Assembly: GCA_958009085.1 (NCBI GenBank)
Contig: OY253669.1
Span: 682,001 to 746,000 of the forward strand
Origin: Protoeuglena noctilucae
Taxonomy: Eukaryota
Reading direction: 5' to 3'
Length of the DNA stretch: 64,000 nucleotides
Part shown: one piece after another, positions 1-64,000 of the stretch
How the letters are laid out: each line of letters begins with the position of its first letter
How positions within the stretch are numbered: the stretch's first letter is position 1
Position numbers and translations under genes: made by a program
Notes under the pieces: generated by a model
Database searches by the model: none
Told to the model about the DNA's origin: nothing
What the model saw: only the letters and a program-made list of their open reading frames with translations

Positions 1-1766
1 GCTTGCGTCCCCGGCAGCGACGGAGCTCGAGCAATCGGTCCTCGACTGGCTAGCGCAACTCATCGGACTCCCCGACGCCTTCCTCAGCCGGTCTGGCAAG
101 GGCGGGGGCGTCATCCAGGGCACGGCATCAGAGGCGGCACTGGTGGCACTTCTGGCGGCCCGGGCACGCATCACGGGGGCGCCTCCCGCCAGTCCGGGCG
201 CCCAGGCCGACGCAGGTGCGTGGCGACATGCGCGTGTGTGGCGAGTGAAATGTCCTTGTGGTTAGTTAGTGTTCTGTACGCAGTGGCCGGCCAGAAGCTC
301 AGTGCTAAATTCTCTGCTGCAGGGTCTCCCGGTGACGAGTGGCGTCTCGTGGCCTACGCCAGCGACCAGGCCCACTCGTGCGTGCGCAAGGCGTGCATGG
401 TCGCCGGGGTGCGCCACTTCCGTGCCGTGCACACGAGGGCAGAGGACCACCACTGCATGAGGTGAGGCCCCGGCTAAGGGCGGCGCATGTGCATGGTGAT
501 GGAAGGCACGCAGGTGACACGATCGCATGGTGGCAAGCCACAGCAGCAGCGCTCTGCACCCACCGTTGCCTGCCTTGTATCCATGGGACCCATAGGTCTT
601 GTGCCACGTGCTCCCTGCAGGGCAGATGACCTCGCGGCGGCCGTGAAGGAGGACCTGGAGCGGGGCCTGATCCCTGCGTTTGTTTGTGCATCACTGGGTA
701 CCACGAGCAGCGCTGCCGTGGACGACATTGCGGGGCTGGCACGCGTGGCGCAGGTGAGGCTGGGAGAGACTCGGCATCGCGATTGCAACACTCTGGTGCC
801 CGTTGGCTGACCATCTGACATCCCACCCCGGTCTATGACCTCCCCAGGAGCATGGGATGTGGCTGCATGTGGACGCTGCCTATGCCGGGGCTGCCATGGT
901 GCTGCCGGAGATGCGGCACCATATGAAGGGGGTGGAGCTCGCCGACAGCTTCGATTTCAACCCGCACAAATGGCTGCTGACCAACTTCGACTGCTCGGCG
1001 CTCTTCGTGCGGGACGCGCAGCCGCTGGTCCGGGCCCTGACCCTCACCCCGGCCTTCCTGCAGAACGGGTGAAGCAGAAGATGCACACGTGGGGCCCATG
1101 GATTGCACATGGTCGTGGTGCAGTTGCCCGTGCATTGCACCACCGCTGTGAGCACCGTGCGGTGCTCTGGGCATGCATGGGCGCACTGCGGGTGTCCCCA
1201 ACTGCAACAACAGCGTCTCTGTCAATCTCCGCCCCAGTGCCACCGAGTCGGGTCTTGTGGTCGACTACAAGGACTGGCAGGTGCCTCTGGGCCGGCGCTT
1301 CCGGGCACTCAAGCTCTGGGCCGTCCTCCGGACGTACGGGGCGCGAGGCCTGCGCGACTTCATCCGAAGCCACGTGTCGCTGGCTCGCGAGTTCGAGTCA
1401 TGGGTGCAGGCCGATGCCCGATTCGAGGTCGCCGCCCCTGTCCACTTCTCCCTCGTGTGCTTCAGGTGAGGGCGGCAAAGGCAGAGGCGGTCACGCAAGG
1501 GCAGGGGCAAGAGCGCTTCTGCACGTGCACATGTCATGGCAGCAGCATCTGTGCCCATCTGTGCCCATCCCAGGCTGGTGGGGGCTGGTGACGACGCGAA
1601 CAGTCAGCTCCTGGACCGCATCAACGCCACGGGGAAGATGTACCTGACGCACACGGTACTGAACGGCAAGTACACGCTGCGCATGGCGATTGGCGGCAGC
1701 GCGACGCGGCGGGAGGACGTCGTGGCTGCTTGGGACTGCATCCGCAGCCAGGTCCCCAGCTCCTGA
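1..1766 (+). CDS. Aromatic L-amino acid (tyrosine/DOPA) decarboxylase, PLP-dependent group II; 5' end lies outside the window; 6 exons visible
   Basis: Spliced translation gives ASPAATELE..., [55 protein letters not shown] (PLP lysine), [19 protein letters not shown]. Five GT-AG introns join the frames. Stop TGA at 1764-1766. Confidence 0.93.
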
Positions 1767-2087
1767 CGGTATCTATGACCGTGAACTGGGAGCATCTCAG
1801 TGATAGTGTTGTCTCGTCTCACTGTCCGGACGACCTTTCGCGACTATTTTGGATCCGCCCGAGCCGTGGGCGTCGTTTTTCAGCGCAACACAGCGTGAGG
1901 CTGACTGTTCCGAGCGTGTGGGGCGTCCCCTAACCCAGCACACATGCCGCACGGTGGCGAGACCGCCCCGGCGCATTCCTCTCGAGCATTCGCACAGCAT
2001 TCTGCTTTTCAACAAAACTCCAGCTCGCCCAGACCGCGTGCCAAGTCAATAGCGACTGCGATTGCCTACACGCCAGCATCCGCTCCC

Positions 2088-5000
2088 TCACGCCTCCTCC
2101 TCCTCCTTTGCGTCCGTCTCTGGCTTGGGCGGGTCCGGGATGAGGTCCGTGAGCGTCTCGCCTAAGCCGAGCGCCTCCTCGAGCACGTCCCCGGGGATGG
2201 TCGAGGGCGAGTCGACGTCCACGGGAGGGAAGGGCGTGTCGTGCGTATCGGACACTGTGCCGTCGACGTGGTGGAAGCCCACCTTGGCCAGCAGTGGGCC
2301 GGGGTCGTACGGCGGCAGGTTGCCCTCCTCGTCCGGCTCCGGCTCCTCGGGGTTCTTCTCCGGGGCCACGTACGTGCCTGCAAGTCACGGACAGTGGGGC
2401 ACGCTCAGTGGCGGTGCATGCGAGTGCGCAGGGTGGCTGCTGGGTCAACAGGGTGCCACGGCGTGTATCCATCGCAGAGCATCGGATGCGGATTGTCCAA
2501 AAACGGAAAGGACCGGTCATGGAAGCGCCTGTGGCAGGGCGCTGGCGCAACCACCGCGAAAGGCCGTCGCAGCTGCCGCGCACCGACGAAGGTGAGGGTG
2601 GGCCCGTGGTCCTTGAGGATATGTTCGGCCGCGAAGAAGGGCAGGCCCCGCACGCGGTCCTGGTGGGACAGCGTGAAGACGGCCTCGCCGCTGGGCACGC
2701 CCTTGGCGTACGCGCCCCGGCTGACGTGCCGGGGCACCTCGTGGACGCCCTCGCCGCTCAGGAACCCCTCGTTCCAGGTGCCGTTGAGGCACGACTCGTG
2801 GCCGGGGTACCAGTAGACGCCCTGCCCGTGGCGCAGGCCGTTTTTCCACGTGCCACGGTACAGCGCCCCGTCGGGGTAGAAGTAGTCCCCGCGGCCCTCG
2901 TACTTGTCCTTCATGAACTGGCCGCAGTACCGGGACCCGTCCGGCAGGACCAGGAGGCCCCGGCCCTGTCGGGAACCCTCCACAAAGTAGCCGGCGTACG
3001 CAGCGCCGTTCTGCGGGGCAGGGCGAGGATGGACATGGCAAAGCGCAGTCATGCACGTGACACACTGTGTCGCGGCCGATTACTAGTGCTTGACAGACGT
3101 CCGTGTGCACCAAGGCGTGGGCCTTGCCTGGAAGAAGTAGACCCCGAGTCCCTGCCGCTTGTCGTCCTGGTATCCCCCCAGGTACAGGTCGCCGTTGGGG
3201 AGCACGATGCGCGTCTCCGAGTCCGCGCGCAGCCCCTCGGCGTCCCTCACGCCCTCGAACTGCGCCACGTCGCGGAGGTCCCGCTCCAGGTCGTCGACGG
3301 ACGCGCCCTTGCCGAAGAAGGCCATGGCGCGGCAGCGGAAGTGCCAGTCCTGCTCCACCATCTTCTTCGCCGGGGCATCCTCCTCCTCCTCCTCCTGCGC
3401 GCGGACACGGCCCAGCATTCTGTCCCCGTCCACCGCAGCATGCGACGTGTGACACGCGCCCAGCGCACGTCATGACCCTCCGTTGTTGCATGCGAGCCGA
3501 GCCGTGACTACCCCCGCACCTCGTCAGGGTTCTTGTCCTGCATGTCCATGGCCTTCTTCTCCTCAATGCCCTTCTGCAGCATCTCGAGCGTGCTGCCCTG
3601 GTCACGCAGGTAGTCCATCAGGGGCATCGGGGGGCGTCCAGAGTCGCCCTCCGTCGAACGCCAACGCCAGTACAGCGAGTCTGCAAAGGGGAACGCTTGG
3701 GCGGCTTAGACGCCCGCACCCGTGTCGCCCCTCGCAGCCGCCCGCATCCGCGCCCCGCTCTGCCCCTCACCGGTGAACTCCCGGGACACCTTGCCGAGGA
3801 TGACCATGTTCTTGTCCCCGTGCTGCCCCTCGGGGCTGACCAGCCGCGTCACCATGAGGTCCCGGTGGTTGCGACGGTCCTTCTTGTCCGTCACATCCAC
3901 TATGCGCAGGAACATGCGCTCCACCGGCTTAAACCCCTCCTCCCCGAACGACGTCAGGCCGAACACGATCGAACGCGCCGCGGGGCTGATCTTCTTCAAG
4001 TCGATCAGCAGCGACGCCTTCACCGGGAAGCCCGTCGGGTCGCGCCCCTCCCCGAACTCTGGGTCCTGGGGGCGGGCAAGAGGCGGACCAGAGCGTCGCG
4101 CGGATGCCATTCAGTCGGGTGAAAGCCAGGCCGGGTCAGCGCAGGGTCCCAGTCAGCGCAGGCCATACACAAGCAAGCTGCTTGCCCTGTGCCTCCCCGC
4201 GCTGCGCTGTGCTGCCCCATGCTCCACTGCCTCGCCTTGATCTTCTTGTCGTCGTCGGTGATGGCACGGATGCCGTCCGTGTCGCCGCCCGCGTCAATGA
4301 CCGCGAGCTGCTCCCCCTTGCTGTTGTACACGGCGCACACGACCTCACACTCGGGCTCCGGGGGCGCCTCCACCTCCTCCTCCTCTTCCTCCTCAGCCGC
4401 CTCCTCGCCCTCCTCGCTCTCCTCTCCCTCCGGCTTCTCCTTCTTGGGCTTCTCAGGAGGGAACCACGGGTACCCTGACCACCCCAGGTCCACCCGCACC
4501 AGCCGCACCGCATGCGGCCAAGGGGCCTCGGGCTCCCCGTCCTCTTCCTCGGCCTCCTCCTCCTCCTCCTCCTCCTCGTCGGCTTTCTTGTGGGGCTTGG
4601 GCACGGCCGGCAGCTCGATCTCCTCCCTGGGCTTGCCGTGGAAGGCCGCCAGCACCGCGTCCACCACCAGGCTCTCCACCTTGGGCAGCGGCTGCACCGC
4701 TGTGTCCCGGTCGACCACGACCGCGGAGGCGTCCACCTCGGGGAGCTCCCGCAGCAGCGCCTGCAGGTCCGGCACAGCGGGGCCGAAGGACGCGTGCGGC
4801 AGGCACGCCAGGTCGAACTTGGCCACCCAGCCGTTCGACACGCGGCACATGGCGCACACGGCGATCGAGGAGGGGTCGAAGTCGTTGCCGTCCACGAAGG
4901 GCTTCAGGTCCGCGCCACGCAGCACGTGCTCCAGCGCCCCGCCCTTCTCCTCCGCACTGCGGGCAAAGGATGAGCACGACGGGTCATGCCATGACGAGGG

Positions 5001-9500: not shown

Positions 9501-10581
9501 GATCCCAGGACCCCACGGGCGCCTACATTCGCAGGCGAGTCAGCGACCATGCACCCTTGCTACGTCTTCAATGCAAGAGGGAGATGAAGTCACCCCACTT
9601 CAGCAAACATGGCTAGACGGCTTCTCCCACACTTGGCCTGACCCATCAACCCCTCGCCTGCCATAAGATGGGTGCCGGAGCTTGCCAAGCTCCCCACCAA
9701 GCACATCCACGAGCCATGGAAGGCGCCCGCCGACGAGCTGGCCAGAGCCGGGGTGGTGCTGGGGGTCACGTGAGTGTTGCCCACTCGTCTGACTGTTCGA
9801 TGTTGACCGTTCACTGTCACTTTCTCCGCTCCCCTGATGTGGCCCACTGTCACTCGCTCTGCTCCCATCGTGCATGCAACCACGCCTCGCTTTGCTCCCC
9901 GTGTGCCCCAGGTACCCCGAGCGCGTCGTGAAAGAAGACCTGCGTGTGCTGCGGGAGGAGAACGCGAGGGCCATCCGCGCCGCGAGGGCCGCGGAGGCCG
10001 AGGCAATCGACGGGGGTGGGTACGACACTGTGGTGGCGCCCCCGGGGTCAACCGTGGGGCACGACGGGAGGCGCGTGAGGGTGTTCACGACGCCTCCCTT
10101 GCGGGGAGGCCCGGGGGAGATTCTGAAGAAGCAGAACTGGACGGTCGGGGAGGCGGTGGCGAGGATGGACACGCACGACCGGGAGATGACCAAGAAGATT
10201 GCACGCAGGGCCATGCGGCTGCAGGGGGCGGCGGGGGCGGGTGGAGGGTCGAGGGATGGGAAGAGGTGCGTGGAGTGTGGCAGGGGGGGGGGTTCCCATG
10301 GGTTGCATGGAAGGTCTCGCTGTTGCTTAGACACGGCTGGCATGCGGTGGTTGGGTGACCCTGCACCCAGCATGGCTGGCATGTTATCGTCGAATGACCA
10401 ACTACCGAGGGTTTCTCGTGCGGCATAGCAGGCGGCTCGCTGCCCCCACCCCCGCAGGGACAAGCGGCAGCGGGCGGGGGCCCTTGCGCCTCTTGACAAG
10501 CAAGACACGATGCAGAAGACGCTGCTCGAGTACATGAGGAGAGGAGAGGCGGACACGCGCATAGACGACTACATGCTGTGA
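6579..10581 (+). CDS. Cryptochrome/photolyase family flavoprotein (plant-like photolyase/CryP type) with an N-terminal helical extension
   Basis: VVVWLR|QDLRLHDNP, TRLSPYLHFGQLSPR, WQEGRTGFPLVDAGMR|ELWATGWMQQSVRM, DWREGARWFHDTLCDADLAINSM|MWQNAGKSGLDQWNF, DPTGAYIRR|WVPEL. About 13 introns. Last exon RDKRQ...IDDYML* ends at 10581. Exon joining around 7000-7240 is ambiguous. Confidence 0.88.
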
Positions 10582-10787: not shown

Positions 10788-13700
10788 TCACACGGGCATC
10801 CCACGCTCGCGCATGTCCGCCTCGGCGTCCGCCAGCATCCGGGCGCGCACCTCCCGCGGGTGGTTCTGGTGGTACACATTGCTGCGACTGGCGCGGAATG
10901 CAGCGTACATATCCGAGTCCCCCAGTCCCGCCGCCCCACCCTCCCGCGCCGCCCCCAGGCCCTGCCGGTACCCCGGCGCGTCGCGGCCGGTGGCGATCGG
11001 GGTGAAGATGTACTTTTTGACCTGCGACAACGACAGGAATCGAATTCAAGACGCTCGGCAGGTGCACATGTGCACGGCCAGCGACGCGCACAGCGATGGC
11101 CCCGCATGCGCACAGCGTGTCTGCCACGCGCGCTCCATGTCGCCGGGCACACGCACATGCTTATTGACAACCCCTGCTCCCCGCCGCATCTCGCCTGGGC
11201 TCTCCCTAGGGCCACGTCCCTCAGCACTGGGTCCTCCATTCCCGGCTTGTAGCTCGCCACCTCGGCCATGAACAAATCCAGGCGTGCCTTCAGGTACTTG
11301 TCGTTGAGGATGCGCTCACGGACATCGGCGTCGTCCTGCGGAGTTGCGGAGGCCAGGGAAGCCGTGAGGATGGGGATAGGTGTGTCACAGGGTAGATAGT
11401 AGCAGTCGTGGGATCCCTGACACAGGGCAACGGGGGCAGCGAACAACACGGTTAGGGGCAGGCATGCTTGGTGTGTGACAAGACAGCCAGTGCAGCAGCG
11501 GAAATGTGTGTCGAACAGTCACGCCAGGGACAGGTGCGGGTGGGAGGAGCCAGGGTGTTGAGGGTTCTGCAAGCGAGTTTGCTGCGAAGGGGTCAAAGTT
11601 TAGACAGTTTGGTCAGTACATGCACGCAGCCATGCAGGTGAATGGCGGTGAGAGTCCCTGCAAGCGAGTGAGGAGTGGAGGGAGGGCCGAGACGTGGGGA
11701 CGAGCTGCAAGGATCAAAGCAAGCGGGGTATCATGTGCGCGGGCAGTGTGGACCATGAAACAGGTGTCTGCATCGCAACGGGCTGAGTGGGTGCAGTCGA
11801 GGGTGCGTCATGTGGCAAGGTCGCAGGCTGCGGTGTGCGTGCGGGTCAAGCCAAGCCCGTGTGGCACGGCTGCAGGCGCGGGCACAGTCGAGTCAGCAGA
11901 GATCGTTTGAACCCGCGAGCCACGCCCGGCAACTGCTGTGCGTGCAAAGTGACAGGCGGTTGACCCCTGACCCATGACTCAGTCAAATGCACATCTCCTC
12001 ATCAAAAGCGCTGCCCGGGAGGCAGCCAGGGCCCCTGGGGACCCTGGCCTGAGCCCGCCCAATCCCCAGGCCCGGGCAGGGCGGGGCGGGACGGGGCGCT
12101 GCCAAACGTCGGGGGTTGGGGTGGGGCCGGCGGCGCCCGCTGCGTCTGCTGCGGGCTGCGAGCCTGCAGCCTGGCCGCGGCCTCCTGCCAGCCACGCACC
12201 AGGGCCCTTCTCCTGCCCTCCTCCTCCTCTTGCACGAACTCCATGGGCGTGGCCTCGTAGGGCCGATGCATCTCCAACGCCCTCCGCACGACGCTCGGGA
12301 TGACGCCCGCCGTGCACACCGCCGTCGAGTTGCGGGGTGGGGGCGCCGGGATCGGAGGGCCCTGGGGCCGCGCGGAGACGGGCGCAATCAGCGTAGAGAG
12401 TGGTGCAGTCAACAGAGAGATGAATACCACTCATCTCTCCCTGCATTGCACAGTCTCCACTCACCGCGTGCGGCCCGGGCCCCTCTGGGCCGTGGCCTCC
12501 GTACCCGCCCCACCCCTGCGGCTCCCTGCCGCCATCCCACGGACCCTCCCCGAACCCCGGCCCCTGCGGACCGTGAGGGTGGTCTCCCCAGGGTGCAGGT
12601 CCCGGAGGTGGGCCCCTCGGGGGTGGCATGGGTCGCTGTGCCACCGGCCACTGACCCTCCGGCGGCCCGAGATACGGCCCCGGCGCGGGTTCGGGCGGAG
12701 GCATGCCCGGATCGGGTGCCCGCCCTGCCTGCACGGGCCACTGCGCCTGCAGGGCGGGGTCCGGCAGTGCCGTCTGCCCTCTCTCCTTGGCCTCCCGCTC
12801 CCTCTTGCGCTCCTCCTCCCGGTCCGCCTTGGTCTTCTTAGTCTCCGCGGTAATGCGCGCCGCTAGCTGCGCCGCCACCTCGGCCGCCCGCTGCGCCGCG
12901 TTGACCGTCACGGTCTGCTCCGACATCGAGCGCGCCACGTTGGCGGCCATCTCGGCAGCCTCCGCGGCCGCTGCGGGGGCGACGATGTGCGAGAAGGGTT
13001 CGCATGTCGCATTTCGGGGTCGCGACCTGCGACGCGCACTGTATCCTGCTCCACCCACTGACACCCCGCCCGGCGCCTCTGCACCGCCACTGTGCCTGGG
13101 TCCCTGGTATTGGCTCCGTCGCGCTGGGTGACGTGTTACGCGGCCAGTACCAACATGCCTCACCGATGACGGGGTCGCGCATGCCGTTGTGGAGGTAGTA
13201 CCGAAGGTCCTTGCAGACGGAGTCCGTGAACACGCCCTTCTTCTCCCACAAAGCGAGCAGCTTCTCCAGGCCGTGCTGCGTGGACATGCCCCACTCGACG
13301 CTCCTGCGAAGAGACGGGGGTGAGTACGGTGCATGGGCGCTGCGGAGTTGGCTGGGCGGGCCTGCCGAGTGACTCCGGGGGCTCCCTGTGCCCCCCGCGC
13401 ATCACAGCTCGGGCCTGGTCAGCACAACCCACCTCATCTTCCCCGCGAGCAGCGCCCGGCGCAGGAGGGGCCCCAGCATGGGCCGTATCGCCTGGGCAAT
13501 GGCGTCGGCATCCGGGGGCGTGTTGGGGCCTCGGGTCGACGCACCCTTCACCAAAATGTCGTGGGCCAGGTACGCCAGGTGCATGAGGCCCTCGTTGTCA
13601 CCCACCGACTCGAGCTCCTGCAACATCGCGGCGCAAGCGGGGCTTGCATGAGATCAACCACGGCAACGACATGACCAACACGCCTGCCCTGGAGAGGCAT

Positions 13701-17968: not shown

Positions 17969-19238
17969 ATGGGTGAGTTCCGGCTCGGCTGCGCGGCCGC
18001 GTTCCGTGGGGTCGGGCCGAAGCCCGCCGCGGGGCGGTCGCGGTGGGCCAGATGTCCCCCGCGTCTGGTCCCCCGTGCCCTCTCGCCGTGGGTGTCGGCC
18101 CTGGGGGCCACGCCGAGCCGTCGTGTCGCTGCACGACGCGCGTCCGTGCCCGTGCCAGCCCCGCGCGGCCCGCGCTGCCCCCCGGCTGCCCTTTACAAAG
18201 CGCGTTTCTCACTCCCGCCCGGAGGAGCGGGCGGCTTGAGCGCTCGGTCTTGGGAGCCCCTCCTGCCCCTCCCCCGGGCGCCCCAGGCCATCCGGCGGCA
18301 CGAACGCCTTGCATTCGCTCGCGTGCAGGGATCACTCGCTCGGGGCTGCACAAGCGGCGCGCCACGGGCGGCAGGCGCCCGCACTGGAGGAAGGCGAAGA
18401 AGTACGAGCTGGGCCGTCAGCCCGCCAACACCAAGCTCTCCTCCAACGTGTCGGTGCGCCCCCTTCGCGTGCGGGGTGGCAACAGGAAGTTCCGGGCGCT
18501 GCGCCTGGACTCGGGGAACTTCTCCTGGGGCTCGGAGGCTGTGACGCGCAAGACGCGCATCCTGGACGTCGTGTACAACGCCTCCAACAACGAGCTGGTC
18601 CGCACGAAGACCATCGTGAAGAACGCGATCGTCGCGGTCGATGCCACGCCGTTCAAGCAGTACTACCTGCAGGCAAGCGCGCGGGCCTGCGGCTGCTGCA
18701 GACAGGCGCGCCCGGCGCCGGCCGCGGCGCAGCCCCCGTCGGATCCGTGCCGCCTTTCGCTCCGTGAGCCGTCCGTGTGCCGCCTCGCGACCGCAGCACC
18801 GCGGCATCGAGCTGGGGAAGAAGTCGGAGGGGGAGCCGCCCAAGCGGTCCAACGCGGTGCAGCGCAAGATCAAGGAGCGCAACGTCGGCCACAAGCTGGA
18901 CGAGCAGCTGGGGCACCAGTTCGACGTCGGCCGCCTTTTCGCGTGCATCTCGTCGCGGCCGGGGCAGGTGCGTCGCTGGGGCATGGGATCTCTTCCAGCG
19001 TGTCCATGCCGCGGCCTCGCATTGCGGCTTCGAGGAGACAGTGGAGGCGTGCGGCTTGCGTCCCCGTCGCCCCTCCGCGCGCTCGGAAGGTCGTGACGCG
19101 CGACCGCGCAATGCGGGGGCCACCCTGTGAAGCTTGTGCTGCCCGCAGTGCGGCCGTGCGGACGGGTACATCCTAGAGGGGGCTGAGCTGGCCTTCTACC
19201 TGAAGAAGATGCAGAAGAAGAAGGGAAAGTCGGCCTAA
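17969..19238 (+). CDS. RPS8: 40S ribosomal protein S8 (eS8)
   Basis: ATG-G micro first exon, then [15 protein letters not shown]...[12 protein letters not shown]...[24 protein letters not shown]...[36 protein letters not shown]. Intron 2 has a GC donor at 18673. Confidence 0.97.
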
Positions 19239-20746: not shown

Positions 20747-20928
20747 GGACAAGCGCGATGCTCGTCAAGTTCACGCTCACGCCGTAGCCTTCCACTCCTA
20801 TCTAACACCAGTGTCACGACAACGATTCAAATGGCTAACGCAGGCTGTGCTGCGTGACTGCCCTGTGCATGTTGAACATCCGCAACAAGCGCGTTGCGGC
20901 ACGCAGCGCTTCTGTGAGACGAGCCAGG

Positions 20929-49349: not shown

Positions 49350-51262
49350 CTACTGCGCCGGGGGCGGGGGCGGCACGGGCCCAGGCGGCTGCGGCGGGCC
49401 CTGGGAAGGACGGGGCCCAGGGGCGGAACCTGGCGGGGCGAACGTCGGAGGAGGCGGGATGGGGTTGGGCGGCACGGCCGGGCGGAAGGCTCCCGGGGGC
49501 GGCATCGACATGGGCGGTGGTGGGATGGGCATGCCCATCCCCATGCTCATCATGGGCATGGGCGGGGGCGGCGGGATGTTCATGCCCGCCGGGTACGCCC
49601 CGGAGAGGGAGCCCGGGGCCTGCATGGCCGGGGGCCGGGGCGGCATACTGATGGGCGGGGGGCGGGCCACCCCGGCCTGGGCGTGGAGGGGTGGCGGGGG
49701 GAGGATGTTGGGCGGGGGACGCGGCGGGGCGTTCATGGGAGGCGGAGGCATGGAGGACGGTGGGGCTGGGACCCCGGCGGAGTCGGCGGACTTGGGCGGC
49801 TGCGGCCCCGGGGGGGGCGCGGTGGGCGGGGGCGGCAGGGACGTGGGGGGTGCGGGGAGCGGCGGGCGCCCGGCGTCGCTGCAAGAGAACGAGACGGCGA
49901 ATGTTCGTCGACGGCCTCCTCAAGCCGCGCGGTCCAGTTTCTCCATGTAAGCGCACAGGGCTTCTGCAGCCATCGCCTTGCCTTCGTGGGGGGGCCATCC
50001 CCTCGGGGACCGGCGGCGGTGGCGGCAGGACGAACGCGTTCGCCACGCGCATCTTGAAGGTGATCATGAGCGTGTAGATCTTGCGGTCGGGGTCGTAGTG
50101 CGCGCAGAAGCGGCTCTTGTCCGTCTGCGGGGCACGGGTGATAAAAAGCGGCGTCTGCGGATGCCATAAGCCGAGAATGCGAGACGCACACGGCAGGGGA
50201 GAGAGCAGGACTGGATCTAACGCCAGCATGCCTGCAGACTGCCGTGGGCGGGCGCGCCGGGCGGCCCAGCGTGACGGAAGCAAGGAAGTCACCTTGTCGA
50301 TTTCCAGGCTGGGGACTTTAAAAGAGATGATTTGGTACGGGTCCGCGTGGAACAGCAGGTACTGCCAGTTCTTGTCGTGGGGCTCCACGCGCTGCTCGAA
50401 AGCGCTCATAAACCGGTGCCGCGGCTTCTTGCCCTCCTCGATCTCCGGGTACTCCACCTCGAACAGCAGGGACTTCAGGCCCGTGTCCGGGTCGATCTGC
50501 TTGGTGACGCGGTACCCAGGCCGGCCAATCTTGATCACCCGCCGCGTCGGCTCAATCTGGCGGCACAAGTAAGACCGGGGCCGGTTGGTGAGCAAGCCAT
50601 GCAAGCGGACGGCAGCGACGTCGATCGCGGGCACGCCGCGGGCGCGGCTCTCGCCTTCGCCTTCACGACCGGCGCGATGGGATGGTCCTTCTGCTCCAGC
50701 GCGGCACGCTTGGCCAGGTTCTGCTGGTGCCGCTTGCCCTGGGTGTGCGCGAGGTACGAACCCTCGTTGTCGTGCAGCGTCAGGCAGAGGCGGCACTCGA
50801 TCTTGCCAATGTGGTTGCGGAAGTAGTACGGGTCCTTCTCCAGGTCGATCGTCTCCAAAGCGAGCCGTCGCAGGCCTGCAGGCGATCGACAGGACCAACA
50901 CGTTGCCGCGGGCACTCTGTGCTCGTGTCAAGCCCGCGGGCCCGGCGCGGTGTGGCCCGTGGCGGCGCTCGCCACTCCGTGGCCCCCAGGCGCGGTCAGA
51001 CGCCTCCAAAACCACCCAGCTCGTAAACACGCATTTCCACCGTGCTATTAGACCAAAGCAGGGGGGGATTGCAGCTCACTGCCGCGCCGGCACGCGCAAA
51101 AAGGACGGGGCAAGCAATCGCAGCCTGCGCTGGCCATCGCCGGCCCAACCAGACGTGTGCTATGCCTGACTCACGTTCCCTCCGATCCGCGTTGGCCTGA
51201 GCCTCGGAGACAAACCCAGTCCCGGGCTTGACGCCGTGCTCTCGGGCGTCCATGAACGACAT
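49350..51262 (-). CDS. SF3A2: Splicing factor 3A subunit 2 (Prp11/SAP62)
   Basis: DRRER|LRRLALETIDLEKDPYYFRNHIGKIECRLCLTLHDNEGSYLAHTQGKRHQQNL, KIGRPGYRVTKQ, PRHRFMSAFEQRVE, then a Pro-rich tail. Two GC donors. Confidence 0.96.
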
Positions 51263-51672: not shown

Positions 51673-54600
51673 ATGGCGGACGGGAACGGCGAGTCGGGCT
51701 ACAAGCCCGTCGTCCAAGAGGAGAATGGGGAGCTGAGCATGAGCATCGAGGAGACGAACCGGTTGCGTGCTTCGCTGGGGCTGAAGCCGCTGGCGGTGAG
51801 CAGATGCGCGACGCGCTGGCTTGCCGGAGCATGTCAGTCGAGCCTCATATTCCCAACGAACGCGCTGGTGGAAGGCAGGGTCTGTTGGCGCGGCCGTTTG
51901 TGAGCAAGGCTTTCCCGACGCGCACTGCGTGCGTTCGCCCCGCCTTCGCCGCAGGTGACCACTCAGACGAGGGCGGATAAGGCAAAAGAGGAACATGAGC
52001 GTGGGATGGCGGCGCGGGAGGAGAGGGAGCAGAAGGAGGCGTCGGCAAAGGCGAGGGCAGGGGAACTGGAGAGCGCGTGCGCGTGACCACGCCGCGCAGC
52101 GTCCCCGCGAGCGCGGCTTCTCCCTCGCCATCTATCTCGCAGATTCGGGCAAAGCTTCAGGAGATGGCCGACAAGAGGAGGGTCGAGGAGCGCCTGCGCA
52201 GCGTGCGTACGCTGGGGGAGGCAGAGAGCGGGGGCGAGGACGACGTGATGGCGTGGGTGCAGCGCAGCCGGAAGCTCCACGAGGTGCGGTGCAAGCTCCA
52301 GCTGTCGCGGGTCGTAGGGCGCCGCAGGGACGGGATCGCTGAGGAACCTCTGCGGAGCCCGGGGCAGTTCGCTGGGGAACGCTTGCGTGACGTTCAGCGT
52401 GGCAGCGTTTGTGACCCGCAGCAGCAGAAAGAGGAGGAGGACGCAAGGCGGCAGGCGGAGGCGCGGGGGCGTGCCCGCAAGCGTCGGCGGGAGGCGGACG
52501 GAGAGGGGGCTGACGAGGAGGAGGGGGCCGACGAGAAAGACGGCGGGGGCTACTCGGCGAAAGAGATGGCTGGGATGAAGGTCAAGCACGCGGGGGAGTT
52601 GGAGCTGGGCGAGACGGCCATCCTGACGCTCAACGACCGGGGCGTGTTGGACGAGCAGGGCAACTTAGTCGAGGACGACGACGAGCAGCTCGTCGACGCG
52701 GTCCGGCTGCAGGCGAGAGGGCATGTTGGCGCGCTTCAGAGGGCCGTGGCTGCTTGCATTGCAGGCGGAGGTCGGCTCGGCCGTAAGCCAGCTCGGCTGC
52801 TTTGCGCGGCCCTTCGTGCCGTGAGGCGTGAGCAGCCGAGCTGCCGTGAGCATTCACATGACCTCACATCACCTGTGCCGTTGTGTCATATCGCGCAGGA
52901 GAAGAAGCGGGAGCACGCCAAGAAGATCAGCCGTGCGCGGAAGGGCTACTCCGGGGTGAAGGCGCTTGAAGAGGGCGACACGGGCCTCCTGGCGCAGTAT
53001 GACGAGGAGGAGGATTTCCGCGATACCTCGGAGGCTCTGGTGCTCGACGGCGACGGGACGCTGGCGGCGAAGAAGGCGAGGGGTTGCAGCTTAGCGCAGG
53101 GGCAGCCACGGTGCCGTTCGCAGCCACGTACGGGGGCGGACATGCGGGCTGCCACATGTGGCCGTGTGGTTCGTGACGGAGTTAGAGACAAGTCAGTGCG
53201 GTCCATTCCCTGCGCGCGCAGGCTCGGGAGGAGGAGGAGGTGAAGGCGAGGCTGGCGGAGCGGCTTGCGTCGGTGGAGGAGCGGGCGCGGCAGCAGGGGG
53301 ACTACATGTCCAAGGAGGAGGCGGTGGGGATGGACGAGATCCGGGAGAGGAAGCGGAAGAAGAAGTCAAAGAAGGAGAGGCGTCTGCGGAAGAAGGACCA
53401 CGACGAGGGCGAGGAGGGCGCTACGGACGCCCTCATTGCGCAGGCGAGGCGTGGGGGTGGCACTGGCGTGCGGGATGGCTGGAATGAAACGAGGGGCGTG
53501 CGGGGATGTGGGCGGGGGCTGGGCGATGGACGGCGGTATGTGTGACTGATGCCCGACACAGCTCGCGCCCCCGCAGCTCGAGGCCCAAGCGGAGGGTGAG
53601 ACGCAGAGCGACCTGGGCACGCGGTCGCAGCGGGAGAGGATGGTGGCGGAGCGGGCCAGGAAGGAGGCGGAGGAAGTGAGGAGTTGGCCGGGCCATGCCT
53701 CGCCCCGCGCTGCGCGTCCTTTTGCTGTGCCGCGTGTAGTGTCGGCTGCAGTCTCAACCTCCGCCTGTGCTTGGCCGCAGCGCGACGCTCGCAAGGCCCG
53801 CTTCCAGCGCGCGTTGGACCAGGCCAACGAAGCGTCGCGGGCCCTCAAGCCGACGTCGTCACTCGCCCCGGCAGCTCCCGATGCCGACGGGGTGGCGGAC
53901 GAGGACGAGGAGCTGCAAGCGAGCCTGGAGCGGGCGCGGCTGGCGGCACAGAAGGCCGGGAGGGCGCAGGAGAGCCTGGCGGGGGTGGCGCGGAGCTTGG
54001 TGGCCAAGCGGGAGCAAGAGGAGAATGCGGGGCCAGTCACGGCGGGCGGCGTGGTGTTCACGGACGCTGTCGAGTTCCTGCGGTGAGCGAGGCCGCGTGT
54101 GGATGACAAAAGGGTTTTGCGGATCGCGCGATCACGAGGGACGGGCGTGGCAGATGCGTATTGAACAACGGGGCTGGCCATGTGCTGGATCGTTTCTTGC
54201 GTGTTGCGCGCGCAGGGGCATTGAGGCGGCGGACGCGGGCACGTCGGGGGGAGTGAAGGACGAGGAGGGGTTCGCGGGGGCGGAGGATGTCGACATGGAG
54301 GGCGGTGCGAACGACGAGGCGGGGCCGTCAGGCGAGGGGCGGGGATGGTGCATGCGCGGCGTGCCTGTTGACGGGCAGCGGATGCGCTTTTTCAGCCGCG
54401 CCGGCGGTGGCCTTTCACAGCCACGCAGCCCACTTACGCGCCCCGCTGTCTCTTGGTTGCCTTGCAGGCGGTGGGAGGGCAAGGCAGTACCGGAGAAAGG
54501 CCGAGGGCACCGACGCGCCCGGAGAGATGCCGCCGCCGCACAGCCGCGCGCCGGAGACCGTCACGGCGGAGAGGGCGGTCGGCCGGGGCCTGGGATCCGC

Positions 54601-57448: not shown

Positions 57449-57499
57449 GGGTCCCGCGCGCCTCGCCATGCTCATTTAACGCACCCACCGTCTCCCGCG

Positions 57500-58596
57500 A
57501 TGCGCTGCGTCCTCCGGCCAGGCTTGCGCTCGCCGTCGACCCTGCGAGCCGTGAAAACCATGGCCGGCACCGCCCAAGACCTCAAACAGCTGCCCCGGTG
57601 GTGGGACGAGAACACCATCGCGGTGGTGTCTGGAGCGAACAAAGGCATCGGCCTGGAGATCGCGCGGCAGCTCGCGGACCTGGGCATGCACGTCGTCCTG
57701 GGATCCAGGCGAGGAGAGCTCACGGGGTCGCGTTGAGCATCTCGTCCTTGCCGTGTCGAGGACTTTGCGTCGATGCGACTGCGTGCGCGGTCCGACTTCG
57801 CACAGAGACGCTGAGCGCGGGAAGGAGGCCGTGCGGAACATCACGTTGCAAAACAGCGCAGCCAAAGTCGAGTGCGCCGCGCTGGACATCACCGACGAGG
57901 CCACGGTCACGCGTCTAGTTGGTGAGCATCGATCACGTGCTGCCCTCCTCGCCCGATGCGCCGGTGCGACGTGGCCGGTCTCGGCGGTGGCCTGCAGGCG
58001 ACTTGCGGGCCCGCGAGGGCAAGGAGGTGGCGGTGCTCGTCAACAACGCGGGCATTGCCTTCAAGGGCGACACCTGGGGCGCCGAGGAGGCCCGGCAGAC
58101 CATCGAGACCAACCTGCGGGGGACCCGGCGCATGACCGAGGCCATGATGCCCCTGCTGACCCCCCACGCCCGCGTGGTGAACGTCAGCTCGCGCGCGGGG
58201 CTGCTCAGCATCTTCGCTGCCGGCCGCGCCGAGGCGACGGACCGCATCGCGCGCGAGGGCTCGGTGCAGGACGTCGACGGCGTCGCCGAGGACTTCCTGA
58301 GGTCCGTGGCGGACGGCAGCTACGCAGATAAGGGCTTCCCTCGCTCCATGTACGGGGTGAGCAAGGCGCTGGAGAACGCCTACACGCGTGTGGTGGCCCG
58401 GGAAGCCGCGAGGGACTGCCCGGGGCTCCTCGTGGCGGCCATGTGCCCCGGGTGGTGCGCGACGGACATGAGCAGCTGGCGAGGCCCGCGGAGCGCGGCC
58501 CAGGGAGCGGACACGGCCGTGTGGCTGTGCGTGGCGCCAGAGGAAAGCATTCAGACGGGACAGTTTTGGGCAGACCGGCAACGCATCAGCTGGTGA
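57500..58596 (+). CDS. Short-chain dehydrogenase/reductase, carbonyl-reductase type (start at 57500 or 57560)
   Basis: AVVSGANKGIG, VLVNNAGI, VVNVSS, YGVSK (YxxxK), CPGWCATDM, GADTAVWL. Confidence 0.92.
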
Positions 58597-59990: not shown

Positions 59991-61826
59991 ATGCCGGGTC
60001 CATGGCGGGAGTGGCTGGAGGGGGAACTCGCTCGATGGAGCTCACAGGGACTGATGGTGCGGGCAGCACGAATGCGCACGGCACCCGCGAGGCGCCGCCC
60101 GGTGGCGTGCGCCAGCGCTGTGCGGCTGCAGCTGACAGTCGTCCTGCACGTCTGGGGCATCCATCCGGGCGCAGGCCGCCGAGAGGGCGCCACGACTAGG
60201 ACGTGCCATCCACCTTCCCTCCCTCCTCGCGCAGAGACGCTTGCACCTGATGCATCTGTCAGAGCGACCAACGGCCGTGACAATATCGCGGGAGGAGCTG
60301 CTCGCGTGGCTGGCGGAGCTGGACGGCACGGGACGCCCCTCGACCTCCCAGGCACCGCTCGACGTGGAGCCCGCGGCGCTGACGCTCTTCAGCACGAACG
60401 ACTACCTGGGCCTCTCTTCTCATCCTGCCGTCCAGGCCGCCTACGGCTCGTCGGGGGCTGCGCACGGATCGGGGACGCGGTCCTCTGCAATCGTATCTGG
60501 CTACTCGGCCGCGCACCGGGAGCTGGAGGTGGCCCTCGCGACGTTAAAGGGCGCGGAGGACTGCCTACTTTTTCCCACGGGCTTCGCGGCGAACCTGGCC
60601 GCGGTCTCTGCTTGCATGGCCGGGGGCGACTGCGTGGTGCTTTCGGACGAGCTCAACCACGCGTCCATCATCGATGGCGCCCGCCTCGGGTCCCGCGCGG
60701 GCGCGGAGGCCAAGGTGTATCGCCACAACGACATGGGCCACCTCGAGGAGTTGCTCAGGTGACTAGCTGCACCACCACGCGTGCCATGCTGCCGAGGGCC
60801 ATGCGCCCCCCTTGTTCACCCGGGTGCCGCTGCGGTCCGCCAGCGCAGGTCGGCGTCGGGGAGTGGGAAGCGGGCGATGGTCGTGACCGACGGCCTCTTC
60901 TCCATGGACGGGGACTTTGCCGACCTCCGGGCCCTGGCGACCCTCAAGCGGCGTTACGGCTTCCTGCTGGCCGTGGACGACGCGCACGCCACGCTCGTGT
61001 GCGGGGAGCGGGGGGCGGGCACCGCGGCCATGCTGGGCGTCGAGGAGAGCGTGGACCTCCACGTCGGGACCCTGAGCAAAGCCGTCGGGTGCCTGGGGGG
61101 CTTCGTGGCGACCACGCGCGGGATGAAGGCGTGGCTGTCGAACCGGGGGAGGGGCTTTGTGTACTCGACGGCGCTGCCCGTGCCCGTGGCCGCAGCTGCC
61201 CAGGCGGCCCTTCGCGTCGGCATGGAGGAGGCGAGTGCGGACGCTGGCCCTGCCGCAGCTGATCCGATGACACGTGCGCGCAGGCAAGAGCGTGACGGAT
61301 GACTCTCTTGCACCGGCCTGCAGGAGTGGAGGCGAGAGCACGTGTGGTCCCTCGTGCGCCGGGTCGGCGAGGGGCTGGGGTGCACGGCATCGTCCCCGAT
61401 TGTGCCGGTCGTTGTGGGGGCCGAGCAGGACGCTCTGGCCATCAGCGGACAGCTATTGAGGGCGGGATTCCACGTGCCGGCGATCCGGCCCCCGACCGTG
61501 CCCAGGTGCCCCTGGCTCTGCTAGAGCTAAGCGCGCCTTGTAAAGCGCTGGCGGTCGCGACACGCTGCGAGCGGGTCCCTCTCGCGCACGCAGAGGCACG
61601 AGCCGGCTGCGAATCTCCCTCTCAGCGGCGCATACGACGGAGGAGGTGGACAGCATGATGCGGTGCGCCCCGCCTCGTGCGCTGCGGCCGCTTCTGTTTG
61701 TGCGAGCCAGTAGCATACGCGAGGCGATGACGTCGAACTCGCCCGCACCACACCCGCAGCGTCCTCAGGGACGGCGTCCAGGGCGTCAGGCTGGGCACAA
61801 CGCCCCAGGTGCCAAGTAAACTGTAG
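59991..61826 (+). CDS. bioF: 8-amino-7-oxononanoate synthase (BioF) with a C-terminal PTS1 (SKL)
   Basis: LFSTNDYLGLSSHP, LLFPTGFAAN, SDELNHASIIDG, VTDGLFSMDGD, VDDAHA, GTLSKA, PAIRPPTVP|RGTSRLRISLSAAHT. The last exon ends VPSKL*. Confidence 0.94.
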
Positions 61827-62498
61827 CTCCGTCTTGACACGTGCATGCATGACTCGGTAGGTACCACAGAGGATGCGAACTCTTTGATTCCCACTTCCCG
61901 CGGATTCGTCGTTCTGGTTTGCCCGCTGGCGTTTCTCTGTTGGCGACCAGAAGCGGTCTGAGAAGGTGCCTTGGCGCCGTGAGGTTGCCGCTCGTGACAG
62001 TTGCTTGCTCTGTAGCGCGAGTGTGGATCGGGATTGCGCCCAACGGAAGGGTGCTTGGCTCACTGGACCCGTTGAACTGCTTTCGCGCCGCACGCATGAA
62101 AACGGGAGAGCGACAGGTATCCCCGTGACTTCCGGGCAGTCCAAGCGTCTTGGCTGCCGCAGCCTGGCCTGGATGGCTGAGAGTGTGCCCTAGACGAGAA
62201 CGAGATGGAGATCAATGTGTGCTCGCCCCCGTTGGGCCCGTGCGCGCGGCGACCGGGAGCACGTCTTCGAAATGCATACATCGGGATGAGGGCTCCGCCT
62301 CTCCGCGCGGCTCGGGGTGAGGGGGCTCGGGGTGGTTGAGCGGCGCGGGCCGAGCAGTCCTGCCTCCCTGGTCGTTGGCCCGCACTCCCGCTCCGCCGGC
62401 TGCGCACCGACGTCTCGCTTGACGTATGCTGTGCAGGAGCCAGCGGCCCGGCCCCCGTCGTCGCCAGCGATGCCCATTCGCAAGCGCGGCTCCAAGCC

Positions 62499-64000
62499 AT
62501 GTTCGATTGGCTCAACTCGCCCCTGGTGAGAGGGCTGCGTCCACGTTCAAGCGCGCGATTTGCATGGTTCGGCCTCTTCTTCGAGCCGGATAGACGCCGA
62601 GGGCCCGCGTCGGCCTCGCAACGCGCAAGGGCAAGGAGATCCCGCTTGCCCCCACAGTTCGCGCGCGCCGCGTCGACAGAGGCGCCCTCCCAGCTCATCG
62701 GGGGCCGGCAGACGCTACAGAAACGCGAGCAGCCGTCGAGATCGCCGGCAGCGCAGCATCGCGGCAACGCGAAGGCGGGGACGAGCGATGCCGCCCGCAT
62801 GGCCGCGGTTGGCGCCCCCGCGCCCTCCGCACGGCCCTCGCACCCCGCGGCGCGTGCGCTCGCTTCGCTGCGGGGCGCGATCACGGCCCGCACGCACGCC
62901 GTCTGGAGCACGGCGCCCGCCGCGGTGCCCACCACGCCGCTGGCCGCGCAGGGGTGGGGCGCCCTGGCCATCTCCGCGGCCCTGGTGGGCAGCTGGGTGC
63001 GCGCAGCGCTGGCGAGCTGGTGGGCCTTCGACGCAGTGCAGCGTCTGTCGGGCCAGCGCATCGCCGGCGAGGCGGCTCTGGCCCAGGACGGCACTTCGTG
63101 GGCCCATGCGGCCCGCGCCAGCCTAGCATCAGCGAGCGCCGCCGCGACGCGGGCCGCGATGACGCTCCTCTCGGCGCTCTTCGGTGTGGGCCCCGCCGTC
63201 GCCGCCGTCGCCGCCGCCCGCGGCCGTGACGCCGCGTCGCGCGAGCGCTGGATGGTGGAGTCGCCGTCGTCGCCGGAGGCACCGCTCGCTCCCCCCGCGC
63301 CCGCCGGGATCTCGCCGGTGGAGCTCAGCCGTCTCCGCGACCGCCTGCGGTCCGAGGAGGCCCGCGTGCAGAAGCTCGTGTCTCAGCTGGCGGCCGAGCG
63401 TGACGTGTCCAACCGGCTGCGGGACAGGCTCGGGGAGGAGCGCTCCCGGCACCTGGAGGAGCGCCGTCTAGTGCTGCAGAACTCCCCGAGCCGCGTCGAG
63501 TTCGACATGCAGGCCGAGACGATTGCGTCGCTGCAGGCGAGCGTCGCGGCCGGGCGATTCCGCTGACAGAACAGTGGCGCCCGCAGGGTCTGAGCCCGCC
63601 GTTCTTTTTGCTAATCGCAGGCAGACTTGGCCCGGGCGAACGCGCTGATCAAGTCGCTGCCCTCCAAAGGCCAGTGGCAGGACGCGCTGCTGCAGATCGA
63701 CAAGCTGAAGGAGGAGCTGACGTCGCTGAAGGCCGAGCTCGTCCGCACGAAGAATGCGCGGGAGCAGGTGCGTGCCATCGCCGGCGCGGGTGGCGGTGCC
63801 GAGGGCACTGAGGGCTGGGTGGCGCGATGGGCGACGGGCGTGGTGTGCCGCTTTCCGCAGGCGGAGCAGGCGCTTCAGGCGGCGAAGCGCTCGGCCCAGG
63901 CGGACCTGGCGGACGTGAAGACCCGTTTGGGCCGGGAGGTGGAGGCGCGCGCGGAGCGGGAGCAGCAGGTGTCTGCGATGGAGGCAACGCACCGGCAGGA
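62499..64000 (+). CDS. Long coiled-coil protein with a hydrophobic Ala-rich N-terminal region, running off the window end
   Basis: ORF from 62499. Heptad-rich ELSRLRDRLRSEEARVQKLVSQLAAE..., continued over introns (GC donor near 63537) as ADLARANALIK...IDKLKEELTSLKAEL. Start uncertain. Confidence 0.6.

What the first reader, a model, noticed from the sequence alone, without database searches (positions are those of the whole stretch)
1..64000. Very high frequency of GC-AG introns with a strict AG|GCRAG donor
Seen: conserved reading frames require about 25 GC donors among roughly 135 hand-inferred introns, on the order of 15-20%. Several split invariant motifs and so are hard to explain away: ARL2 P-loop GLDNAGK|TT at 19858, JmjC catalytic HTE|D at 29817, RPS8 at 18673, SART1 at 52051, 52713, 53076, 53444 and 54332. 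Every GC donor is preceded by exonic AG and nearly all read GCGAG or GCAAG, while GT donors are much more relaxed (gtgcgt, gtgacg, gtacct, gtgata). Established: GC-AG introns are usually only about 1% of U2 introns, and they need stronger U1 pairing at flanking positions. Inference: this lineage has relaxed +2 recognition, or GC-biased substitution converts GT to GC wherever the flanks compensate.
Basis: partly seen in the sequence, partly recalled or inferred. Interest (0 to 1): 0.72.

Follow-up and report, generated by a model that had tools for sequence, protein, structure and literature searches.

The report
Many GC-AG introns in green alga
About one intron in six in this stretch of a GC-rich marine green alga starts with GC instead of the usual GT, but only where the neighbouring bases are a perfect splice signal; this is real, but the same thing has already been described in other GC-rich algae.

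Summary
RNA contigs from four marine metatranscriptome runs gave 51 splice joints in window 17601-37600. Only 15 were shown: 13 GT-AG and 2 GC-AG (18673 and 26406 minus strand). Five more GC-AG introns have independent support: a transcript-derived protein (61231), contig-piece ends (29202, 29817), and exact collinearity with Pfam or PDB homologues (19858, 29817, 50557). A self-trained gene finder recovered all 8 cited sites. It settled on 28 GC of 135 introns, or 23 of 130 (17.7%) after I removed doubtful calls.

GC donors occur almost only where both flanks are consensus (AG|GCRAG): 22 of 37 such donors, against 1 of 93 others. That 59% matches the intron C/(C+T) of 0.62.

My reading is ordinary U2-type introns in which donor position +2 drifts to C under GC-biased substitution wherever U1 pairing is otherwise complete.

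Very abundant GC-AG introns in GC-rich algae are already published for Aureococcus, Micromonas pusilla, Chlorella, Emiliania and Pelagomonas. This is therefore another member of a known kind.

Limits:
- One window only; no whole genome is held.
- U1 and U6 could not be inspected.
- 36 joints were not visible.
- 11 of the 23 GC calls rest on the gene finder alone.

The parts
18673..18796 (+). GC-AG intron in ribosomal protein S8 gene, cag|GCAAGC
   Evidence: RNA joint in 4 of 4 runs. The only canonical placement within the 4-base ambiguity is GC-AG.
19858..19946 (+). GC-AG intron in ARL2-like GTPase gene, aag|GCGAGG, splitting the P-loop
   Evidence: Flanking exons match Pfam Arf profile 2-27 and 28-51. 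The GT-only parse moves the donor 24 nt upstream, to 19834.
26261..26406 (-). GC-AG intron in peroxiredoxin-thioredoxin fusion gene, cag|GCGAGC
   Evidence: RNA joint in 4 of 4 runs. The spliced mRNA gives one open frame.
29202..29288 (+). GC-AG intron in KDM5-like demethylase gene, after the JmjN exon, aag|GCGAGT
   Evidence: Contig pieces start at 29287, which equals 29289 within the AG ambiguity, and lie inside longer contigs (table 8). The exon before it matches JmjN 1-31 of 34. The partner piece was not shown.
29817..29926 (+). GC-AG intron splitting the JmjC H-T-E|D motif, gag|GCGAGC
   Evidence: Contig pieces end at 29814 in 4 runs. The exons abut in 6 of 6 shared PDB chains.
30357..30502 (+). 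predicted GC-AG intron in the KDM5-like gene, aag|GCGAGG
   Evidence: Gene finder only. The downstream exon has no PDB match.
50557..50654 (-). GC-AG intron in SF3A2 (Prp11) gene, aag|GCGAGA
   Evidence: Phase-0 junction. Upstream exon residue 73 corresponds to human SF3A2 102, and downstream exon residue 1 to 103.
52051..52142 (+). GC-AG intron 2 of SART1 gene, aag|GCGAGG
   Evidence: Gene finder. No in-frame GT donor with the same acceptor within 75 nt.
52713..52898 (+). GC-AG intron 4 of SART1, cag|GCGAGA
   Evidence: Six GT alternatives and intron retention score 4.4-41.8 bits lower against the SART1 profile. Pfam SART-1 positions run up to 113 in the exon before and from 127 in the exon after.
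53076..53221 (+). GC-AG intron 5 of SART1, aag|GCGAGG
   Evidence: The single GT alternative scores 16.3 bits lower.
53444..53576 (+). GC-AG intron 6 of SART1, cag|GCGAGG
   Evidence: Two GT alternatives each score 7.1 bits lower.
54332..54467 (+). GC-AG intron 9 of SART1, cag|GCGAGG (least certain of the five)
   Evidence: The GT alternative at -27 scores 5.0 bits lower. The GT alternative at +75 scores 2.1 bits higher, but it reads gcg|GTGGCC and would leave a 61-nt intron.
61231..61323 (+). GC-AG intron in 8-amino-7-oxononanoate synthase (BioF-like) gene, gag|GCGAGT
   Evidence: The spliced model equals transcript-derived protein P0002 from residue 2 to the stop.
3011..3127 (-). predicted GC-AG intron, TerD/MORN protein gene, cag|GCAAGG
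   Evidence: Gene finder only. Also found without a donor matrix.
4066..4235 (-). predicted GC-AG intron, same gene, aag|GCGAGG
   Evidence: Gene finder only.
9535..9667 (+). predicted GC-AG intron in photolyase/cryptochrome gene, cag|GCGAGT, with an odd AAG acceptor
   Evidence: Appears only in the run with a length prior. Uncertain.
11022..11194 (-). predicted GC-AG intron, unknown gene, cag|GCGAGA
   Evidence: Gene finder only.
12564..12728 (-). predicted GC-AG intron, unknown gene, cag|GCAGGG (the only retained call without RAG at +3..+5)
   Evidence: Gene finder only.
34223..34318 (-). predicted GC-AG intron, unknown gene, cag|GCGAGA
   Evidence: Gene finder only. It lies in the RNA-laid region, but its joint is not among the 15 shown.
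39735..39846 (-). predicted GC-AG intron, unknown gene, cag|GCGAGT
   Evidence: Gene finder only.
45877..46019 (-). predicted GC-AG intron, unknown gene, gag|GCGAGC
   Evidence: Gene finder only.
57709..57805 (+). predicted GC-AG intron, short-chain dehydrogenase gene, cag|GCGAGG
   Evidence: Gene finder only. The exon before it matches adh_short 2-29.
63537..63620 (+). predicted GC-AG intron, unknown gene, cag|GCGAGC
   Evidence: Gene finder only.

Best explanation
These are ordinary U2-type spliceosomal introns of a GC-rich (about 67%), intron-dense marine green alga. In roughly one in six of them the second intron base is C instead of T. The T-to-C change removes one base pair with U1 snRNA. 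It is tolerated only where the other core positions (exon -2 A, -1 G; intron +3 R, +4 A, +5 G) all pair. At such fully consensus donors, position +2 behaves as nearly neutral and has drifted to the C/T ratio that GC-biased substitution sets in intron interiors. At weaker donors C is removed by selection.

Shown: the GC-AG junctions are real, they are frequent in this window, and they are confined to full-consensus flanks.

Inferred: the direction of change (GT to GC), the role of U1 pairing, and that the rate holds genome-wide.
For: RNA and transcript evidence:
- RNA joints: 2 GC-AG and 13 GT-AG among the 15 shown, each with a single canonical placement.
- Transcript-derived protein P0002 fixes GC-AG intron 61231-61323 plus 3 GT-AG introns.
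- Contig-piece ends fit 29202 and 29817.

Collinearity across GC introns:
- Arf profile 27|28.
- Human SF3A2 102|103.
- KDM5 and JMJ chains, 6 of 6.

Self-trained gene finder:
- From GC priors of 0.01, 0.13 and 0.5 it converges to 30-31 GC of 144-145 introns.
- With a length prior it gives 28 of 135.
- Forbidding GC donors costs 190 log-odds units and mis-places RNA-proven and transcript-proven junctions.

GC share by flank class:
- both flanks consensus: 22 of 37
- exon AG only: 1 of 37
- RAG only: 0 of 43
- neither: 0 of 13

Composition and signal type:
- Intron interior C/(C+T) is 0.622 against 0.59 observed at full-consensus donors (binomial p 0.74).
- Flank pairs to the U1 consensus average 5.3 for GC donors and 4.5 for GT donors (p 8.6e-5).
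- 0 of 135 introns have U12-type donor or branch motifs, and introns share no repeat (1 marginal hit).

Literature (passages read):
- GC-AG is 39.6% in Aureococcus, 22.2% in Micromonas pusilla and 7.7% in Chlorella, with canonical U1 5' ends in the three species checked there: Aureococcus, M. pusilla and Micromonas RCC299 (PMC3033335).
- 14-17% in Aureococcus and about 14% in Pelagomonas, attributed to GC content (bioRxiv 10.1101/2024.10.30.620910).
- 56% of 241 mapped junctions in Emiliania huxleyi (PMC4028052).
Against: - Only one 64-kb window was examined. No genome is held, so the genome-wide rate is unknown.
- 36 of 51 RNA joints were not displayed, and the single read-laying run is spent.
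- 11 of the 23 retained GC calls rest on my gene finder alone. The five in SART1 rest on it plus profile scoring or the absence of an alternative.
- The gene finder penalises GC by about 2.2 log units relative to GT. This pushes GC calls toward strong flanks, so part of the strictness in the predicted set is built in. The evidence-backed 7 of 7 is free of this bias.
- Frames alone do not force GC: 23 of 28 calls have in-frame GT alternatives.
- One SART1 alternative (54332, +75) scores 2.1 bits better.
- The direction of change from GT to GC was not shown, because no relatives' genomic loci were available.
- U1, U6, U1C and Prp8 were not seen.
- The match of 59% to 62% rests on 37 sites (95% interval 0.42-0.75).
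Confidence: 0.75

Rival explanations
1. The lineage's spliceosome has changed (U1 5' end, U6, U1C or Prp8), so that +2 T and C are read alike.
For: GC reaches 59% at full-consensus donors, far above the 1.2-1.3% typical elsewhere (PMC6310983 and PMC3033335, passages).
Against: GC is absent from weaker donors (1 of 93). A general relaxation would not predict that. The U1 5' ends of Aureococcus and two Micromonas species, two of which have high GC-AG shares, are canonical (PMC3033335, passage). Not testable here: no snRNA in the window and no genome.
Confidence: 0.1
2. GC donors are kept by selection as deliberately weak sites that regulate splicing or intron retention, for instance in splicing-factor and chromatin genes.
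For: Counts are uneven: SART1 has 5 GC of 12 introns, the KDM5-like gene 4 of 11 (one doubtful), SF3A2 1 of 3. Churbanov et al. proposed selection for alternative splicing in mammals (PMC2490688, abstract).
Against: GC donors also lie in housekeeping genes (RPS8, ARL2, peroxiredoxin, BioF). The share at strong-flank donors equals the neutral C/(C+T). No retained-intron contigs were reported for the two RNA-proven GC introns, although contigs drop rare forms.
Confidence: 0.1
3. The GC donors are an artefact of hand or ab initio inference, and nearby GT donors are the ones actually used.
For: In-frame, stop-free GT alternatives exist within 60 nt for 23 of 28 GC calls. A parser without splice matrices picks many false GC sites in this GC-rich DNA. 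5 of 28 GC calls are doubtful, and one is contradicted by an RNA contig piece (35143-35558).
Against: Seven GC-AG junctions are fixed by RNA, a transcript-derived protein or exact collinearity. The GT-only parse fails at these very sites.
Confidence: 0.03
4. The GC donors were spread by an introner-type mobile element that carries a GC donor, as reported for putative introners of Pelagomonas.
For: Putative introner elements with both GT and GC donors are described in Pelagomonas (bioRxiv 10.1101/2021.10.25.465678, passage).
Against: All-against-all BLAST of the 135 predicted introns gave 1 marginal 19-base hit and no family.
Confidence: 0.02

Closest known systems
GC-AG-rich genomes of GC-rich algae: Aureococcus anophagefferens, Micromonas pusilla CCMP1545, Chlorella sp. 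(Iwata and Gotoh 2011, PMC3033335); Pelagomonas calceolata (bioRxiv 10.1101/2024.10.30.620910); Emiliania huxleyi (PMC4028052)
   Same: - High genomic GC (window 64-70%).
- GC-AG share ten-fold or more above the usual 1%.
- The acceptor stays AG.
- No length difference between GC and GT introns (median 133 against 129).
   Different: - This genome is much more intron-dense: about 135 introns and 26 gene calls in 64 kb. Aureococcus has 0.4-0.9 introns per gene and Pelagomonas 0.19 (preprint passage).
- There are no introner repeats here.
- Its nearest relatives by a BioF tree are core chlorophytes and a pedinophyte, not Micromonas.
- The species was not identified, so I cannot say whether its own genome paper reports the rate.
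Ordinary U2-type GC-AG introns of animals and plants (about 1.2-1.3% of introns; PMC6310983, PMC3033335)
   Same: - GC at +1 and +2, AG at the 3' end.
- Stronger consensus at the other donor positions. That this is a general rule is recalled from Burset 2000 and Thanaraj and Clark 2001; those papers were not read here, and PMC55748 is not held.
- No U12 motifs.
   Different: The frequency is about 15 times higher. Within the full-consensus class, GC is the majority state (22 of 37).

Membership tests
U2-type GC-AG introns | Intron begins GC and ends AG at a junction proven by RNA | tested here: met
   2 RNA joints and 1 transcript-derived protein junction. 4 more by contig-piece ends or collinearity.
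U2-type GC-AG introns | Compensating consensus at the other U1-pairing positions of the donor | tested here: met
   7 of 7 evidence-backed GC donors read AG|GCRAG. 22 of 28 predicted GC donors against 15 of 107 GT donors are strict.
U2-type GC-AG introns | No U12-type donor (RTATCC) or branch site (TCCTTRAY) | tested here: met
   0 of 135 predicted introns.
U2-type GC-AG introns | Removal by the major (U1/U2) spliceosome | not testable with these tools
   No snRNA gene in the window and no genome held.
GC-AG-rich, GC-rich algal genomes | Genomic GC above about 64% | tested here: met
   Window GC is 0.637-0.705 per 4 kb. The whole genome was not seen.
GC-AG-rich, GC-rich algal genomes | GC-AG share far above 1-2% | tested here: met
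   In this window only: 2 of the 15 RNA joints shown and 23 of 130 curated predictions.
GC-AG-rich, GC-rich algal genomes | The share holds genome-wide | not testable with these tools
   No whole genome is held.
GC-AG-rich, GC-rich algal genomes | Canonical U1 5' end despite many GC donors | not testable with these tools
   Rfam found nothing in the window.
Introner elements | Introns are copies of a repeated element | tested here: not met
   1 marginal 19-base hit among 135 introns.

The most novel reading that the evidence does not exclude
In this intron-dense green alga, donor position +2 is at neutral compositional equilibrium (about 60% C) at every donor whose five other core positions match U1, and is essentially fixed as T everywhere else. 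The genome would then be a natural titration of the U1-pairing threshold: a sharp all-or-none rule for when the 'invariant' T of GT can be dispensed with. It would also hold one of the highest GC-AG loads known in an intron-rich genome, so GT-only annotation would corrupt a large share of its multi-exon genes.
Probability: 0.4. Interest if true: 0.45.

Novelty: new member of a known kind. Interest (0 to 1): 0.3.

Why it matters
Practical: a gene finder or aligner that allows only GT donors would mis-place about one junction in six here, which means a wrong model for most genes with six or more introns. My GT-only parse moved the ARL2 donor 24 nt upstream, removing eight codons at the P-loop, and mis-placed the RNA-proven RPS8 and peroxiredoxin junctions.

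Conceptual: the clean split of 22 of 37 against 1 of 93 gives a simple, testable threshold for when the spliceosome tolerates C at +2. It supports the view that high GC-AG loads in GC-rich algae come from mutation or conversion bias plus compensation, not from altered machinery. The phenomenon itself is already in print.

Tried and rejected
Gene finders:
- A single-strand parser without splice matrices recovered 4-6 of 13 minus-strand RNA joints and called about half of all donors GC. It was rejected as noise from GC-rich DNA.
- A run without the donor flank matrix recovered 11 of 15 RNA joints, called 172 introns with 15 GC, and mis-placed the RNA-proven 26406 donor. It is too imprecise to test strictness.
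- A frames-only test of 'GC is required' does not discriminate: 23 of 28 calls have in-frame GT alternatives.

Database searches:
- The search with a SART1 exon (longer proteins) found only P0001, an unspliced read-through ORF call, which is useless for junctions.
- A second SART1 exon found nothing.
- The scan of metagenome contigs with a SART1 exon gave 596 pattern matches, none confirmed.
- Protein Atlas with the RPS8 exon gave no useful taxonomy.
- PDB searches at thresholds I set too strict returned nothing and were repeated. KDM5 exon 30503-30898 has no PDB match, so 30357 stays unverified.

Earlier findings, genome, Rfam:
- Earlier findings hold nothing on this genome or its look-alikes. 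Three notes on Ostreococcus introns do not bear on this.
- No whole genome is held. Rfam found nothing in the window.

Doubtful GC calls dropped from the curated count:
- 28775-28953, 35235-35447, 43049-43286, 44576-44743, 49897-49969.
- All have non-consensus flanks. 35235-35447 lies inside a contiguous RNA contig piece (35143-35558). 49897-49969 is on a probable antisense shadow gene.

Merged-gene 'introns' from the first run, which disappeared once a length prior was added:
- 34985-35431, 49353-49981, 48748-49349, 61809-61950, 61966-62657, 6918-7264.

Other:
- The 5' part of the glucokinase model does not fit the RNA piece start at 23641 and was not counted.
- The species was not identified. 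A single-gene tree places it in core Chlorophyta without a supported class.
Full report
What the window is

The 64-kb window is 64-70% GC throughout. It is densely packed with short exons on both strands. Four marine metatranscriptome runs hold about 0.34-0.42 of the sampled words of 17500-27400, which fits exons only. Four runs of 'organism A' hold all of them.

A transcript-derived protein identical to one window gene (P0002, BioF-like) has its best named relatives in green algae: Micractinium, Chlorella and a pedinophyte, at 69-72% over one exon. A single-gene tree puts it inside core Chlorophyta (support 97) without a supported class. I did not identify the species. No whole genome is held, and Rfam finds no RNA gene in the window.

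Direct RNA evidence

- Laying the contigs of runs X1-X4 on 17601-37600 gave 51 joints. Only 15 were displayed.
- Resolving the stated ambiguity of each joint, every one has exactly one canonical placement: 13 GT-AG and 2 GC-AG.
- Contig pieces 29287-29814 lie inside longer contigs in several runs. They start and end exactly where GC-AG introns 29202-29288 and 29817-29926 predict, once the shared AG is allowed for (table 8). Their partner pieces were not shown.
- P0002 equals my spliced BioF model from residue 2 to the stop. This fixes GC-AG intron 61231-61323 (gag|GCGAGT) and three GT-AG introns.

Homology evidence

- The ARL2-like exons match Pfam Arf positions 2-27, 28-51, 52-109, 110-151 and 152-173. 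The GC-AG intron at 19858 therefore splits the P-loop with no residue gained or lost.
- At 29817 the upstream exon ends, and the downstream exon begins, at adjacent residues in 6 of 6 PDB chains common to both searches, e.g. 258|259 in 4igo and 475|476 in 5ceh.
- At 50557 (SF3A2, phase 0), the 73-residue upstream exon aligns from human residue 30 and the downstream exon's residue 5 aligns to 107. That gives 102|103.
- For SART1 no RNA or transcript protein could be found. I built a profile from 38 full-length homologues and scored my model against every in-frame, stop-free GT alternative that uses the same acceptor.
- The GC model scores 496.7 bits. Ten of the 11 GT alternatives and the one intron-retention form lose 4.4-41.8 bits.
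- One alternative (54332, +75 nt) gains 2.1 bits, but it has a poor donor (gcg|GTGGCC) and would leave a 61-nt intron.
- 52051 has no such alternative at all.

Frequency

I wrote a two-strand Viterbi gene finder. It uses codon log-odds, one donor-flank matrix shared by GT and GC, an acceptor matrix, and re-estimation from its own output. The 15 RNA introns served as seeds.

- From GC priors of 0.01, 0.13 and 0.5 it converged to 30-31 GC of 144-145 introns, recovering 14 of 15 RNA joints.
- It reproduced all 8 cited GC donors.
- With an intron-length prior, which removed most gene merges, it gave 28 GC of 135 introns (13 of 15 RNA joints).
- It predicts 49 introns in the RNA-laid region, against 51 joints reported.
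- Five GC calls have non-consensus flanks and are doubtful. One of them lies inside a contiguous RNA contig piece. Without these five, the count is 23 of 130, or 17.7%.
- Forbidding GC donors lowers the parse score from 2609.1 to 2418.9 and mis-places the RNA-proven and transcript-proven junctions.

The RNA-only figure is 2 of 15.

Strictness

- All 7 evidence-backed GC donors read AG|GCRAG. None of the 13 RNA-proven GT donors has both exonic AG and RAG at +3..+5.
- In the predicted set, 22 of 28 GC donors against 15 of 107 GT donors have both (Fisher p 1.4e-10).
- GC donors have more U1-consensus flank positions, 5.3 against 4.5 of 7 (p 8.6e-5).
- By flank class, the GC share is 22 of 37 (both), 1 of 37 (exon AG only), 0 of 43 (RAG only) and 0 of 13 (neither).
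- Caveat: my model gives GC about 2.2 log units less than GT, so GC calls lean toward strong flanks. The evidence-backed set is free of this bias.
23 of 28 GC calls have an in-frame GT alternative within 60 nt.

Mechanism

- The introns are U2-type by their signals: none of 135 has a U12-type donor or branch motif.
- They are not copies of a mobile introner (1 marginal hit).
- GC and GT introns have the same length (medians 133 and 129).
- At full-consensus donors the C share at +2 (59%, 95% interval 42-75%) equals the C/(C+T) of intron interiors (0.622; binomial p 0.74).
- Among GT donors alone, exonic AG and intronic RAG are negatively associated: 15 seen against 27.6 expected (p 1e-6). This is expected if many full-consensus donors have moved into the GC class.
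- My reading: +2 is near-neutral when the other five core positions pair with U1, and it drifts under the genome's GC-biased substitution. Elsewhere T is held by selection.
- The direction of change and the state of U1 and U6 are inferred, not shown.

What is known

- Iwata and Gotoh 2011 reported GC-AG at 39.6% in Aureococcus, 22.2% in Micromonas pusilla and 7.7% in Chlorella. They linked it to genomic GC, called its origin an enigma, and found canonical U1 5' ends in Aureococcus and two Micromonas species (PMC3033335, passages read).
- A 2024 preprint gives 14-17% for Aureococcus and about 14% for Pelagomonas, against 0.32% in the lower-GC Aureoumbra (10.1101/2024.10.30.620910, passages).
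- Emiliania huxleyi shows 56% GC among 241 manually mapped junctions (PMC4028052, passages).
- Plants average 1.2% (PMC6310983, passages).
- Churbanov et al. inferred net GT-to-GC conversion in mammals (PMC2490688, abstract).
- My searches for GC-AG together with alga, Emiliania, Micromonas or Chlorella, and for GC donors in marine green algae found no report for an intron-dense marine chlorophyte like this one. Supplementary tables of these papers were not read.

Verdict

The phenomenon belongs to a published kind, so interest is modest.

What is mildly new:
- The very high intron density of the host genome.
- The sharp all-or-none dependence on flank consensus, with +2 at compositional equilibrium.

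Both rest on one window.

Noticed in passing
window 25323-27821 (-): A 2-Cys peroxiredoxin (AhpC-TSA plus 1-cysPrx_C) is fused in one RNA-verified reading frame to a C-terminal thioredoxin domain, behind an N-terminal presequence-like stretch. All 8 introns are fixed by RNA joints.
   Followed up: partly
whole window, 135 predicted introns: The acceptor is unusually uniform. 108 of 135 introns end GCAG and 15 end CCAG. The usual CTRAY branch motif is found in only 13 of 135 introns between -60 and -8. The branch signal of this alga was not worked out.
   Followed up: no
window 52143-53220 (+), protein P0001: The public protein collection holds a 359-residue ORF call for this locus that reads straight through introns of the SART1 gene. 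This is a prokaryote-style call on eukaryotic DNA, not a real protein.
   Followed up: yes
window 17601-37600, runs X3 and X4: In runs X3 and X4 most laid contigs are 95-99% identical (100 of 138 and 52 of 79). In X1 and X2 nearly all are 99% or more. A second, closely related population of the alga seems to be present in those samples.
   Followed up: no
window 9323-9680 (+), photolyase/cryptochrome gene: The Pfam FAD_binding_7 match jumps from position 110 to 153 across a predicted 358-nt 'intron', so an exon was missed there. The later run places an exon with a GC donor and an odd AAG acceptor (9535-9667). This is unresolved.
   Followed up: partly
window 23129-23643 (+), 5' end of glucokinase gene: The RNA contig piece starts at 23641, three bases before the predicted exon start. 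This cannot be explained by junction ambiguity, so the first exons of this model are probably wrong.
   Followed up: partly
window 49984-55435: Two spliceosome protein genes, SF3A2 (minus strand) and SART1 (plus strand), sit head to head about 400 bases apart. Both carry GC-AG introns: 1 of 3 and 5 of 12.
   Followed up: no
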